64,000 nt of DNA from Rhynchobatus australiae (taxonomy: Eukaryota). This document shows, piece by piece, positions 236 through 62,810 of this stretch. The notes beneath the pieces were generated by a model. It was not told where the DNA came from, did not search any database, and saw only the letters and a list, made by a program, of their open reading frames with translations. The translations under genes were made by a program, and so were the position numbers. Every line of letters starts with the position of its first letter. The stretch's first letter is position 1. Location of the stretch: the NCBI GenBank assembly GCA_034780895.1, contig JAUZTB010000074.1, positions 13,047,631 through 13,111,630 on the forward strand. The letters run 5' to 3'.

Positions 236-364
236 ACGGAGACACAAGAAATTCTGCAATCTGGAGCAATACACAAAAAGTGCTGAAGGAACTCGGCAGG
301 TCAGGCAGCATCTATGGAGGGGAATAAACAATCGACGTTTCAGGCTGAGACCCTTCATCAGGAC
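236..364 (-). mobile_element. Solo Penelope-like pLTR (~129 bp) carrying a hammerhead motif, with 11-bp TSD
   Basis: Same repeat as the 3' end of the PLE at 31670-31870 and the copies at 29010, 44627 and 46705. Flanked by an exact direct repeat agttgagcaaa at 225-235 and 365-375. Confidence 0.85.
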
Positions 365-368
365 AGTT
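327..368 (-). ncRNA. Minimal type I hammerhead ribozyme motif (PLE-type), core intact
   Basis: Minus strand reads AACUGUC-CUGAUGA-AGG gucucag CCU-GAAA-C-GUC^GAUUGUU. Canonical CUGAUGA/GAAA core, 3-bp helix II, helix I 6/7 paired, palindromic ACGU in place of helix III. Predicted cut between 334 and 333. Confidence 0.8.
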
Positions 369-3300
369 GAGCAAATTCTGTAGACTCTGCTCTTTTCCTT
401 GCCCTCTCTCCATTTTTATTCCTGAATTTTGGTTAAAATAAGGCAAAGTGGGGGGAAGTTTCCCCAAGGTAAAAGCAATTTAGCTCTACCATGACAGTTT
501 CACCTCTCCAACCTGTCTCCCCAACACTAGCACCAAACTGACAAAGGAGAAAGCCTTTGGGATATTTTGTTTAAAACAAGTCACATTAAAATCTTTGATT
601 GTAACAATAAATCTTCCAAGCTGCTAAAAATAGCTTGGCAGTAGTTTAGCGGCTTGCTTTTCAACAGGAAGGATAGATGTACTAGGAGTGATCTGTTACT
701 TTCAGAAGGGAACCCTTACTTTCTGCTAACTTACAAGGTGGACTCTGTTTCAAATCAAAGCCATAATGTGGCTGAAAGCCTTGGTTAAAAGCTCACTCTT
801 CAAATATTTAAATTGAAGTTGAAAACAAAACACATGGATATTCAGTAGTTCTTTAATTCTACCCTACATGTGAAATAATGCAAAGTGAGTTTCCCATGCC
901 CAATTAAGAGAGAATGCAGTTAAACAAAAATATATGCCGCATTTAGGACTTGCTCTTACATACTACTAGTTAAAAGAGCTGGCTGGATAAAATAGTCAGT
1001 ACACAGCATTAAAAAAAATCTTTTTCCTTTCACCTTAAGTCAAAGCATAATTTATCCAAATGTATTTTTAACTGCAAAATTTAAATATTTGTGAAGGGTA
1101 AGCCTTTAGACTCGTAGCAGTAAAGCCTTTGTTAGATTGTCTTGAAGTAACATAATTTCATGCTATGTTGCCACTTTGAGAGACGAATGTGTAAAGGGTC
1201 AAAGTTAAGTCTGACTCTGTATTTGGCCTGGCACCAGAACTCTGGAGACAGCACAGTCTTGAATGATGAATGGTCAGTTTTGTTTGTTTGTGTTGATAGT
1301 ATTTTACTGAACCAGTTAGGGTTTTATCAAGTGTTTATATAAAAATTTACACAACATGTTTTGACTTTCTTGAGCTAAGGGTTTTAAGTGTTAATTTTAG
1401 GAGTGCTCTTTTAACATTTGAAGAAGAGTAGGGATTGTGGCAACAAATTTAAAAGACTACACATTTATTACAAATACTGCCTGCCCCGTGTAACCTTCTC
1501 CTGGAAAATTTAACATTTTTGAAATAAATATGGTGCATTCCAAACACTGTCTCCTTTGCATTGAAGCTAATTTCTGAAAATACAGCAGCAAAGTTAAATG
1601 ACATTCTCCTACCCATGTCCAAATGCAGCTCTTTAACTGCTGATGCACTTCATTCCATGATCAGATTCAGTGCTGCAGATGGGAGTTCCCGATTTACTGC
1701 AGGAATTCCCACTTGGGGCACTGAGAGCTGCCCCAGAACAAAGCACCAGTGTCAATGAGAAATACATCAGCTCAGAATCACAGTTTAAGTTCCAAATAGA
1801 AAATTAGCCAAGGGTGACATATCTCTAAGCTGTTTGGCTGCACACAGATCAGCATTTATTTTCTCTACTATCAACAGTTTTGCACGACATCTTTCTCTCC
1901 CCCTCTTTGGGCACTCTTTCCCCCCACTGTTTAGTTCCAATAATGGACACTTTACTTCTGGGTGTGTACTATCACCTATATCTCGCTCAGTTCATTGCTG
2001 CCAGCTCCACATTGTCATTTTGTACCTACCCTTTACCTTGACTTACTTCACTTTCCATTTACTGTTTGTTTCTTCCTGCACTCTTCACTTTCTGCCCCTG
2101 TTCCAATGCTGCTTCCTGCCTGCTGCTGTCCTGAAGAAAGGAATATAGGTGCAAGTGGAACATCAAACTGAATGAAAAACAGTTCTGACATTGAGTGATG
2201 GAGAAACTTGTGTGACTATGTGCACAAAACCTTAATGGGTACACCTTTAATGTGCTGACAACCCTTGCAATTCCAGTCTAAAATACAGTACTGCTCCTCC
2301 CAACTCTACTTCCTCGTCCATTATTTCAGAACACAGGCTCACAAGGTACAGCAATAGTCACCATCATTGGGAGGTGTGGAGTTGGCTGGAGGGGAAAAAA
2401 TCACTTAAGTAAATAAAGTCTTTAGCACCAAATGAAGAACAAAAATAGCAGGCATGAAGAGTGTGATAAAGGTCGAGCATTCAATGGTTCTCAGTACCAG
2501 ATAGATGGGACATGTATGCTTGAAACATTTGTGTTCTCAACCTGTCAAAGTTGTCAGTCTGCTGCCTCTTACCCAGCACTCAGAGATCGTCACAGTTCAT
2601 TAAATGCATGGCCATGCAACAGCTTGGCATCTCTTCAAGGCTGCAACATTTCTGATGTTCAATATGCAATTTATCTGAATAACTGTTGTCAAACCTATTT
2701 AAAAGGCTTTTCTGAGACAAGGGTGGTAAAAACTTTTACAGAAGTCACACTGGAAATGTTTGGCACTGTGCTCACAGCGGTGAAGTTGAAGTCAGAGGCT
2801 TCTTTCAGAATGAGGAGTTATATCATTCTTTATCTTGTTCACTTGACCTTAAACCACCATGCACCTGAGCAATGAAGTATCCTGCATAAGAACTGTAAAA
2901 GCTGCGTCTGGCAAGCAGCAGGCTGACATTTCTTTCTCTTGGCAACATAAAAGAATCACCCACAAGAGTTCAACAACAACATAGCACACTGCTTCGGTTA
3001 ATTTGCCCGCTGGAAGTACCAGACAAATATAGCTGCGCTCTCGAGAATTGGGTTTGGAGGATGTGTATTGGGCAAAGTGCTGAGCCCACATGAACAAGAA
3101 TGTTTGACCTTCCTCAGCTGCAGAGCACAAGTGGTTGTGTCTTAGAAATACCGTTTATTAAACCAGACAGTTATGGCAGGATTGTCTACTGTAAAACACA
3201 CTGAAAAGAAAGTGACTAAAGTGCAGAACATTTGCTGTATTGCAGGAAAACTTATCACCACCTCATTTAACTTTGGAAGGATGGTGTCTCCAGCAACAGA

Positions 3301-3437
3301 GATCCCCAAGTCATTTGGGGTTCCTCTCATGAATACAAAGTCTGTTGCTATAGACACTTCTGTCATATCAATAAAATCATTGTGCAGTTTCTCTACACTC
3401 CTAGCTGTATAAATTCCATACAGCTCTGAAGACAATG

Positions 3438-3572
3438 TACAGGCTGTCCCTGGGTTATGAACACCCAATTTATGGACACCCCCATACATTAATGAGCTCC
3501 CATAATATGACTAAATTCAAAAGTCTGACATACATGCCTACATTCATTCCTCTGAACAGCAGACCTAGTTTC
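3438..3572 (+). mobile_element. Tc1/mariner (Tigger/pogo-like) DNA transposon end
   Basis: TA followed by caggctgtccctgggttatgaacacccaatttatggacacc, resembling Tigger-type TIRs (CAGGTtGTCCCCGgGTTACGAAC with CpG decay). Runs into an N gap; no second TIR seen. Confidence 0.55.
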
Positions 3573-60964: not shown

Positions 60965-61195
60965 GTCATAGAGTCTTAGAGCTGTACAGCAAGGAAAACA
61001 GGCCCTTCGGCCCAACCCCTCCATGCCGACCAAGTTCGCATTTGCCTGCATTTGGCCGTATCCCTCTAAACCTTTCCTTTCCATGTACCTGTCCAAATGT
61101 CTTTTAAATGTTGTAATTGTACCCACTTCTGGCAGCTTGTTCCATATGCACACCACTCTGTTTGAAAAAGTTGCTCCTCAGGTCTCTTACATCTT
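60965..61195 (-). mobile_element. CR1 3' end
   Basis: ORF 60935-61156 VCIWNKLPEVGTITTFKRHLDRYM; antisense terminus ggaaaacaggcccttcggcccaac. Confidence 0.9.
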
Positions 61196-62189
61196 TTGCC
61201 AAACATTGTTGCACTGGTATCTCAATGTAATTCAAGGCCGTCAAATCTAAATCGTGAATAACAATATCCACAGTACACTGCTTGGTTGCAAAGCCCAAAG
61301 AATTAAGGTAGAGCCTTCTAAATGCAATTATACCACAAAGGAACAATGCAAAAAAAAACATCTGACTGCCCGAGCTTTCATCCTTCAGAATTTCTCTAAG
61401 TGAAGGTGTGAGCTTTAAATCAGGAACATCCAAATCCACAAAGGTCTTTTTTGTAGTTTCCTTCTGGCTTTCTCTGAGGAAGTCTGTATTTATTTAGCTG
61501 CTGTTACTCACATATGTGATTTAATGGAGAAACTTTAATAAGCTTGAGCTGTGGTCTCATTGATAAACAAAGGGAGTGCAAGGGAGAAGGGAAGCAGCAT
61601 CTGGCTCAGAGAGTACAGTATGGCCATGAGCACTGTCATTCCTGATTTTTTTTTCCAAATAGAGAAGCATGTATTGTACTGGTATAATTCCCCCTTCTTC
61701 ATTTCCAACCTGCAAAAACAAATACATTTATTTTTACACCAAATATGTGTTATTTTCTTACAATAATAGCAAATTCCATCTAATAATAAAAATGTGTTCT
61801 CCAAATTTTGGTCAATTGTACAATGTTTTGATTTCCAAGTAAATAGTGTAAAAATCCAGTCTTGGCCCGTGTGCTTGACCCAAAACACATGATGCAGAGC
61901 AGGAAATATATTAAAGAGGCACTGCCATATCAGTTTGCTTTTAAATAGTCAGCATGCTGAGAAAACATGAATTGAAAATATTGATGCATCAACCATGGAA
62001 AGATTTTGCCAAACATAGATAAGAAAAGTACATTCTTAAACATCTGTTAGTAACTGGGGGGCATTAGTATCACCAATACATCAGGCAACAAGCAGATGGA
62101 GATATCAGTCTTCTATGCAGTATAGATGATTTAGATCTGACCTGCAAACTAATGTTGGGACAGTGGAGTTCAATTACAAACGCACAGAA

Positions 62190-62320
62190 CCATTTGATGA
62201 AAGATCATCAACCCAAAACGTTTGTTTTTTCTCTCCACAGATGCTGCTGAACCTGCTGAAAATTTCCATCATTTTCTGTTTATACTTTAGATATCCAGCA
62301 GTTGCAGTATTTTGTCTTTT
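62190..62320 (+). mobile_element. Older PLE pLTR with decayed hammerhead
   Basis: TTGATGA-AAGAtcatcaaCCC-AAAACGTT followed by ctctccacagatgctgctgaacctgctga...tccagcagttgcagtattt. Confidence 0.75.
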
Positions 62321-62619
62321 GTCAGTTGATTTCAGGCTGAGAGAGAGCATCTGTTTTCTCAGGATATTTGTTCAACAGACTGCTTGGGTACTTTTTGAAA
62401 CAGCTTGGAAAGAAGCCAGGAAGAGTGTGGTGTTGGAGGATCTCCACAACTGCTTGGCTTCAATGCACTTAATTGTTATGNNNNNNNNNNNNNNNNNNNN
62501 NNNNNNNNNNNNNNNNNNNNNNNNNNNNNNNNNNNNNNNNNNNNNNNNNNNNNNNNNNNNNNNNNNNNNNNNNNNNNNNNCTTAATTGTTAGGTCAGGGT
62601 CAGACTCTGATGGTACAGT

Positions 62620-62810
62620 AAAATCTGGCAGGCAATGGAAATCTGAAACAAATACAGGTTTTTTCAGGGCAGGTGTGGCAACATCTGTGGAGATGCAATA
62701 GGTTTAACTTTCAAGTTGGTATAGTTCTTTCCATACTTAAAAAAATTAATTTGTTTCGTCTCTCCACTGCTGTGTATTTCTAGTACAGTTTATGTTGTGT
62801 TTTATTCCCA
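62620..62810. mobile_element. Very decayed inverted pLTR pair
   Basis: ggaaatctgaaacaaatacag...ggcaacatctgtggaga, then gtctctccactgctg...tatttctag. Confidence 0.45.

What the first reader, a model, noticed from the sequence alone, without database searches (positions are those of the whole stretch)
236..62810. Dispersed family of ORF-less, hammerhead-bearing PLE derivatives alongside a decayed RT-encoding relative
Seen: the same pLTR/HHR unit occurs at 236, 10172, 29010, 29540/31670, 44627 (x3), 46705 (x2), 62190 and 62620, and only one locus has an RT. Solo copies start within a few bases of the helix I 5' arm (gtcctgatga) and end at ...tgtgtctcc. Three insertions have 11-14 bp TSD-like flanks. 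Helix II differs between copies while staying paired (AGG/CCU, GGG/CCC, AGGUC/GACCU), which suggests covariation. Inference: either a SINE/retrozyme-like non-autonomous family mobilised in trans by a Neptune PLE, or stereotyped 5' truncation at the ribozyme. This density would imply a very large genomic hammerhead population. PLE hammerheads are known in general; I cannot tell whether this lineage's family has been characterised.
Basis: partly seen in the sequence, partly recalled or inferred. Interest (0 to 1): 0.7.

Follow-up and report, generated by a model that had tools for sequence, protein, structure and literature searches.

The report
Truncated Penelope retrotransposon ends with hammerheads
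These are short, mostly decayed tail-end copies of a known kind of jumping gene (a Penelope-like element) that carries a miniature self-cutting RNA motif; they are ordinary except that about a fifth of them begin at one spot, which likely marks where the element's RNA starts.

Summary
The repeat is real, but it is not a separate SINE or retrozyme family. It is the 3' end (pLTR) of a Neptune-type Penelope-like element (PLE), left by 5'-truncated insertions.

In 177 copies picked by motifs downstream of the hammerhead, the 120 readable 5' ends are spread: 58 run upstream into PLE sequence, 26 lie at the helix I 5' arm, 23 inside the ribozyme, 13 beyond it. The helix I cluster is a real hotspot (about 5-fold, scan p 5e-5). 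There is no peak at the cleavage site, and hotspot copies form no clade.

3' ends are bimodal about 38 nt apart (the known PLE tail). Head-to-head pairs are common; none had the tail at both ends. Within one subfamily the 'covariation' is CpG decay; one true compensatory change separates two subfamilies.

About 3e5 fragments are extrapolated genome-wide, but 0 of 105 sampled hits keep an intact motif. Dispersed single PLE hammerheads are in print (PMC4209133), and this scan noted the family three times elsewhere in this genome. I did not find the hotspot in the papers searched; its cause is untested.

The parts
236..364 (-). Solo 5'-truncated pLTR copy, subfamily A, starting at the helix I 5' arm (position 0 = 364) and ending in the tail; the only window copy with an intact minimal-hammerhead core (predicted cut between 334 and 333; helix I only 3 bp)
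225..235 (.). Target-site duplication, copy 1 of 2 (11 of 11 identical to 365-375)
365..375 (.). Target-site duplication, copy 2 of 2, abutting the 5' junction
10172..10400 (.). Old head-to-head pair of subfamily-B-like pLTR pieces (10190-10268 minus, 10301-10372 plus); core broken; N stretch to the left
29009..29147 (-). Solo pLTR copy, subfamily A2, starting at about -3; core has U4 to A and a broken GAAA box; no duplicated flank found
29540..29600 (-). Probable inverted pLTR remnant ahead of the RT region (by eye only; not a profile hit)
   Evidence: absent
29880..31040 (+). Decayed PLE ORF, N-terminal region through RT core motifs, with many stops and frameshifts; its relatives in the genome are 68-76% identical pieces
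31640..31870 (+). 3' pLTR of the RT-bearing copy (profile hit 31749-31840), core decayed; separated from the RT by an unrelated insertion, endonuclease region absent
44627..45150 (.). Compound insertion, subfamily-C-like: 44632-44755(-), 44786-44895(-), inverted 44950-44990(+), and a further fragment at 45087-45150 across an N stretch
46700..46930 (.). Head-to-head pair joined near the ribozyme start (minus half 46700-46800, partly N; plus half 46802-46922); 10 of 11 flanking repeat
62190..62320 (+). Old solo pLTR copy, subfamily-B-like, starting at about +4; core broken
62620..62700 (-). Weak degenerate fragment (E=0.43); doubtful

Best explanation
The units are 5'-truncated insertions of several subfamilies of a Neptune-type Penelope-like retrotransposon, whose terminal repeat contains a minimal type I hammerhead; they were likely made by the element's own reverse transcriptase and are now decaying neutrally. 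Inferred mechanism, by analogy with the anole Poseidon element: the RT-endonuclease cuts DNA and starts cDNA at one of two sites about 97 and 135 nt downstream of the ribozyme start, so every insertion, however short, begins with the ribozyme region. cDNA then stops at about 0.6% per nt, giving variable lengths. Both DNA ends can be extended, giving head-to-head pairs. About a fifth of copies stop at the helix I 5' arm, most likely because the RNA template begins there and the RT runs off it (about 45%; untested). Ribozyme cleavage left no visible mark on insertion ends, and a lone copy is predicted not to cut itself because it lacks helix III.
For: 30 of 30 copies picked by an exact 36-nt core run 8-700 nt further upstream. 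58 of 120 readable 5' ends lie upstream of -6. Upstream lie a GIY-YIG endonuclease with a CX4CxxC linker and RT (L037, L101, L247, L367); in an older subfamily the tail continues into shared sequence toward the ORF 5' region. 3' ends: 33 of 84 at +92 to +103, 45 of 84 at +127 to +135, matching the optional 30-40 bp tail (PMC11167929; PMC8557442). 22 of 107 copies have an inverted partner; of 18 scorable pairs 15 have the tail at one end, 0 at both. Hotspot copies form no clade: 15 changes versus 16.7 shuffled, P=0.20. Substitution is 24-44% at CpG sites, including core G12, and mostly 0-13% elsewhere. Hotspot hazard 3.2% per nt versus about 0.6%, scan p 5e-5. Ends at the cut site: 2 of 107.
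Against: The tree is star-like over about 120 columns, so a weak solo lineage could be missed; one column differs (6 of 20 versus 1 of 40, p=0.004 before correction for 49 tests). 57 of 177 5' ends are hidden by N. Exact-motif picking favours younger subfamily A. In subfamilies A2, B and C most copies lack a strong upstream pyrimidine tract (27 of 37, 21 of 31, 15 of 18; crude test blurred by decay), so short copies may dominate there. The simulation shows a 1.3-fold artefact at the hotspot (43 of 358 versus 33.6). Against simple run-off: two tandem elements have 5' pLTRs reaching about -200 and beyond -500, and pLTR-ORF junction copies start at scattered points. No intact ORF was seen.
Confidence: 0.85

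Rival explanations
1. Same PLE origin, but the hotspot is a roadblock, not an RNA start. The pyrimidine tract plus YAG just upstream of helix I would be a 3' splice site; splicing factors bound there on unspliced RNA, or a weak RNA:DNA hybrid in the tract, would stop the RT.
For: The majority of all six motif-defined subfamilies has a pyrimidine tract and YCAG at -3 to 0, even where CA does not pair in helix I. In D. virilis Penelope the intron ends at the 5' end of helix I (PMC4209133) and transcription starts 46 nt before a 75-nt intron (PMC2377424).
Against: No shared or PLE-derived exon abuts any of the 26 hotspot copies, so spliced templates are not seen. The same letters also fit an initiator consensus (recalled). 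Nothing here measures protein binding.
Confidence: 0.3
2. A non-autonomous SINE-like family of about 100-140 nt, derived from the pLTR and mobilised in trans from its own master copies.
For: Real hotspot of 5' ends. Flanking duplications abut the junction in 6 of 20 hotspot copies versus 7 of 60 others and 1% of controls (score 7 or more). Short copies far outnumber ORF-bearing ones. Monomer derivatives of retrozymes are described (bioRxiv 10.64898/2026.07.22.740005).
Against: No clade, and hotspot copies are no closer to each other (0.093) than to long copies (0.089) and no younger. Short copies occur in every subfamily. Both 3' end types occur among them.
Confidence: 0.07
3. A non-LTR retrozyme: tandem units cut by the hammerhead, circularised and reinserted.
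For: Retrozymes are reported in one chondrichthyan genome and are related to pLTRs. Direct neighbours exist in 12 of 177 copies.
Against: 0 of those 12 show two core-spanning units (several partners are cut by N, and at least L339 is a duplicate across a 100-N gap). No hammerhead tandem array in the window. No excess of ends at the cut site. The motif is the minimal type without helix III.
Confidence: 0.04

Closest known systems
[quoted passage not shown]
   Same: Type I motif without helix III, an extra nucleotide between 9 and 10.1, palindromic 15.2-16.2, several consensus families per genome, most motifs dispersed singly and ascribed to truncated PLEs, pairs on opposite strands 100-700 bp apart.
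   Different: That text names fishes, coelacanth (about 4,000), Xenopus (about 9,000) and reptiles, not cartilaginous fishes, and does not map 5' ends. Here decayed fragments number about 3e5, and two subfamilies carry core changes (U4 to A; A9 to C or an inserted C).
Poseidon element PAc of Anolis (Frangieh et al. 2024, PMC11167929; read parts 1-2 of 4)
   Same: Two internal RT start sites that define the optional tail, extension of both DNA strands, and no RNA reads ending at the ribozyme cut; here two 3' end classes, head-to-head pairs and no excess of DNA ends at the cut.
   Different: PAc is Poseidon clade, whose linker lacks the zinc-finger motif; this family has it. No 5'-end hotspot is described in the parts read.
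Neptune/Nematis-type EN+ PLEs (Craig et al. 2021, PMC8557442; passages)
   Same: C-terminal GIY-YIG, CX2-5CxxC linker, two cysteines between GIY and YIG, heavy 5' truncation, partial tandems, inverted truncated partner, tail at one end only.
   Different: No tree against reference Neptune and Nematis proteins was built, so the clade rests on domain order and motif.
Non-LTR retrozymes (PMC7229834, passages; bioRxiv 10.64898/2026.07.22.740005, parts 1-3 of 5)
   Same: Short, ORF-less, hammerhead-bearing, pLTR-related; monomers dispersed.
   Different: Defined by tandem units each with a complete hammerhead and by circular RNA; not seen here.

Membership tests
EN+ Penelope-like element | RT followed by C-terminal GIY-YIG endonuclease, then the pLTR | tested here: met
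   L367 has RT, linker and endonuclease in broken frames ahead of the unit; L037, L101, L247 have the endonuclease; L101 hits Pfam GIY-YIG weakly, E=0.0024, below cut-off; 3 of 4 proteins had no Pfam hit
EN+ Penelope-like element | Variable 5' truncation | tested here: met
   120 readable 5' ends from -255 (reference limit) to +89
EN+ Penelope-like element | Optional 30-40 bp tail, often at one end only | tested here: met
   78 of 84 3' ends in two clusters; 15 of 18 pairs with one tail, 0 with two
EN+ Penelope-like element | Partial tandems and inverted truncated partner | tested here: met
   22 of 107 with inverted partner; same-strand pLTRs 2.2 and 3.6 kb apart across N in L366 and L374
Neptune clade | CX2-5CxxC motif in the RT-EN linker | tested here: met
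   CX4CxxC in L037, L101, L247, L367; definition from PMC8557442
Neptune clade | RT phylogeny with Neptune rather than Nematis | not tested
   No reference proteins were fetched
Minimal type I hammerhead | Core boxes, helices I and II, no helix III | tested here: met
   Intact in 161 exact genome copies of one core and 9 of 86 subfamily-A copies; 0 in 800 kb of sampled DNA; 1 in the window
Minimal type I hammerhead | Covariation of helices | tested here: inconclusive
   None within subfamily A; one double change in helix I between A and B and one single-sided change in helix II; R-scape not available
Minimal type I hammerhead | Self-cleavage | not testable with these tools
   Needs an in vitro assay
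Non-LTR retrozyme | Tandem units each with a complete hammerhead | tested here: not met
   0 of 177 copies; no array in the window; genome-wide arrays not searched
Non-LTR retrozyme | Monomeric and circular RNA ending at the cut site | not testable with these tools
   No RNA holder listed
SINE-like non-autonomous family | Fixed 5' end and own diagnostic lineage | tested here: not met
   26 of 120 ends at the hotspot; no clade, P=0.20, low power

The most novel reading that the evidence does not exclude
The 5'-end hotspot is a fossil map of the PLE transcript start: RT primes about 100-135 nt into its own mRNA and runs off the 5' end, so an autonomous element mass-produces SINE-sized ribozyme copies with no master gene. 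Some amplified subfamilies carry altered catalytic cores, suggesting that cleavage is dispensable for spread.
Probability: 0.35. Interest if true: 0.45.

Novelty: new member of a known kind. Interest (0 to 1): 0.25.

Why it matters
The family itself adds one more lineage, probably a cartilaginous fish (inferred from earlier notes and recalled repeat types), to a known pattern. The useful part is mechanistic. The role of the PLE hammerhead in transposition is open. Here thousands of insertions can be read as a record: ends do not cluster at the cut site but do cluster 31 nt upstream of it, and head-to-head pairs never showed two tails. This agrees with the in vitro anole result and gives a cheap test (CAGE or 5' RACE at one position) of where PLE transcripts start.

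Tried and rejected
Rfam scan of the window found no hammerhead family, only AT-repeat microRNA matches below cut-off. A literal CTGATGA search finds 1 true copy among 9 matches. Best-hit loci for copy 1 were not used for end statistics because the query favours copies like itself. One search used a mis-built reference for the tail anchor; it was corrected and rerun, whose numbers are used. Three duplicates were dropped (180 to 177); a few partner halves and gap duplicates remain (L256/L297, L202/L301, L295/L296). Four of 22 pairs were left out of the tail count (one cut by N, two short partner fragments, one duplicate). Spliced-template idea: no shared or PLE exon upstream of 26 hotspot copies. 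cDNA fold-back on helix I: less likely, since subfamilies with a 3-bp helix I also show starts near 0 (small numbers, not tested statistically). The prediction that full-length elements start at -1 was not borne out. No RNA holder listed. Contigs of three public runs were laid on 1-3500: all three hold the family in thousands of contigs; those of organism C reach 22 and 27 nt into copy 1, below the tool's 31-letter rule, so a shared insertion is not shown. MFE folding of one core gave a hairpin near the hammerhead fold and a palindromic dimer; not informative about activity. Paper searches for shark or elasmobranch PLE families found no description; Repbase and Dfam could not be searched, and the preprint's supplementary tables, which may list chondrichthyan families, were not seen.
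Full report
Numbering. Position 0 is the G that opens the 5' arm of helix I (window 364 on the minus strand in copy 1). The predicted cut lies between +30 and +31.

Observation. The window lies in a 2.23-Gb genome. A profile built from 28 genome copies finds ten clear hits and a few weak ones in the window; the reversed window gives one hit at E=3.8. 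Three of the 'solo' loci are head-to-head pairs. One insertion has a perfect 11-bp duplication, one a 10 of 11 match, one a weak 9 of 12. Only copy 1 passes a minimal-hammerhead descriptor. Rfam does not report the motif.

Abundance. In 80 evenly spaced 10-kb stretches from 26 large contigs (682,679 non-N bases) the profile gives 105 hits and 0 in reversed sequence. They merge into 82 insertions, 14 with a head-to-head pair. Extrapolated: about 3.4e5 fragments (bootstrap 2.6-4.3e5), assuming small contigs and N stretches behave alike. None of the sampled DNA passes the descriptor, which puts intact motifs below roughly 10,000 (my calculation); 161 exact copies of one intact 36-nt core set a floor. 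That range is like the 4,000 in coelacanth and 9,000 in Xenopus (PMC4209133), and below the 120,000 named in a section title for axolotl (PMC7229834).

The parent element. All 30 loci examined of the 161 exact-core matches extend upstream of the ribozyme, by 8 to about 700 nt. Upstream is a pyrimidine-rich untranslated region of about 330 nt, then a GIY-YIG endonuclease with two cysteines between GIY and YIG and a CX4CxxC linker; L367 holds RT, linker, endonuclease and pLTR in order, in broken frames. The linker motif marks Neptune and Nematis and is absent from Poseidon (PMC8557442). Pfam support is weak (1 of 4 proteins, below cut-off). In an older subfamily the tail runs on into shared sequence toward the ORF 5' region. 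The window's RT locus is such an old copy, interrupted by another element and lacking its endonuclease.

5' ends. To avoid bias I picked copies by exact motifs downstream of the ribozyme (60 more fetched): 177 copies after removing 3 duplicates, out of 932, 566, 363 and 850 matches. 57 ends are hidden by N. Of 120 readable ends, 58 lie upstream of -6, 26 at -6 to +2, 23 at +3 to +35 and 13 further down. The stop rate is 3.2% per nt at -6 to +2 against 0.3-1.0% in all other bins; a scan-corrected simulation gives p=5e-5. Artificially cut copies joined to random flanks give 43 of 358 in that window against 33.6 expected, so alignment slippage explains about 1.3-fold, not 5-fold. Subfamily A2 shows the same, 8 of 27 at -4 to +2, against a rougher reference. 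At the cut site (+30, +31) there are 2 of 107.

No separate lineage. With CpG columns removed, 20 hotspot and 40 long copies mix on the tree (15 changes, 16.7 shuffled, P=0.20); hotspot copies differ from each other by 0.093 and from long copies by 0.089, and are no younger. Power is low because the tree is star-like.

3' ends and pairs. 33 of 84 readable 3' ends fall at +92 to +103 and 45 at +127 to +135 (reference ends at +135). This matches the optional tail that lies between two RT start sites in the anole element (PMC11167929). 22 of 107 copies have an inverted partner within 45 nt. Of 18 scorable pairs, 15 have one tail, 3 none, 0 two (7 of the 18 were picked for a tail on the forward half). 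This layout is described in PMC8557442, and opposite-strand pairs in PMC4209133.

Target duplications. Direct repeats scoring 8 or more flank 14 of 78 solo copies against 2.5% of mismatched controls; 6 of 78 score 11 or more. Lengths vary and some are offset. Junction-abutting repeats (score 7 or more) occur in 6 of 20 hotspot and 7 of 60 other copies.

Covariation. Among 86 subfamily-A copies spanning the motif, substitution is 24-44% at the eight CpG positions, including catalytic G12 (44%), and 0-13% at most others; no helix pair shows a double change in more than 1 copy. AGG/CCU in copy 1 is GGG/CCC after CpG decay, read one base off. Between six motif-defined groups (252 of 348 copies assigned), helix I changes from GUC/GAC in A to GUU/AAC in B, a true compensatory pair, and one helix II pair goes from U-G to U-A. 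Structure was thus kept in the active parents and not in the copies. Two groups have altered cores in their majority (A2: U4 to A; C: C at position 9).

Mechanism. Shown: the sequence layout, end distributions, pairs, decay. Inferred from PMC11167929: internal priming at two sites and extension of both DNA ends. Inferred by me: the hotspot. All six groups have a pyrimidine tract and YCAG at -3 to 0. This fits an initiator (consensus recalled) and a 3' splice site; the D. virilis intron ends at helix I. No exon sequence abuts the 26 hotspot copies. I put run-off at an RNA start at about 45%, a roadblock at the acceptor at 30%, other causes at 25%. Against run-off: full-length tandems need not start there, and the D. 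virilis start lies about 120 nt upstream of helix I. A single minimal hammerhead showed no cleavage in vitro (PMC4209133), so lone copies are predicted inert.

Prior knowledge. Dispersed single PLE hammerheads, truncation, inverted partners and tails are in print. A 2026 preprint reports retrozymes and their monomers as PLE derivatives, including one chondrichthyan (supplements not seen). Seven searches returned no description of this lineage's family or of a helix I hotspot; only listings were seen for papers not named above, and the library lacks most subscription journals. PMC6155905 was seen as passages. Three earlier notes of this scan reached the same basic reading on other pieces of this genome; they are not independent support.

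Verdict. A new member of a known kind; interest 0.25, resting on the hotspot and the absence of a cut-site signal.

Noticed in passing
window:61538-61948 (-): A frame with a weak match to the TGF-beta receptor 2 ectodomain (Pfam PF08917, E=0.0034, below cut-off). Possibly a host exon, which would put some copies inside a gene.
   Followed up: no
subfamily A2 (window 29009-29147; L216-L245) and C (window 44627-44990): Majority cores differ from the hammerhead consensus (U4 to A in 37 copies; C at position 9 in 18 copies), yet these groups amplified widely (3,064 exact matches of one A2-type motif).
   Followed up: partly
window:31060-31635: An unrelated insertion splits the RT locus; its translation recalls the esterase-like ORF1 of CR1-type LINEs (recalled, not tested).
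   Followed up: no
window:38349-38538; L339; L295/L296: Identical sequence on both sides of 100-N stretches. Likely assembly-gap duplicates, which can mimic tandem copies.
   Followed up: partly
L167, L178, L313: Flanking duplications are offset from the 5' junction by partial re-copies of the same flank, resembling templated insertions from end-joining repair (interpretation recalled).
   Followed up: no
subfamily A hotspot copies (L167, L268, L313, L317, L282; window 365): All five sampled copies that start exactly at position 0, and window copy 1, have T before it. Unexplained; small numbers.
   Followed up: no
window:47983-48454 and 49122-49594: A direct duplication of about 470 nt, 91-92% identical, 1,140 nt apart, including a repeat end found elsewhere in the window.
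   Followed up: no
L366:4283-6842; L374:2611-6820: Same-strand pLTRs 2.2 and 3.6 kb apart with N between them: candidate tandem pLTR-ORF-pLTR elements.
   Followed up: partly
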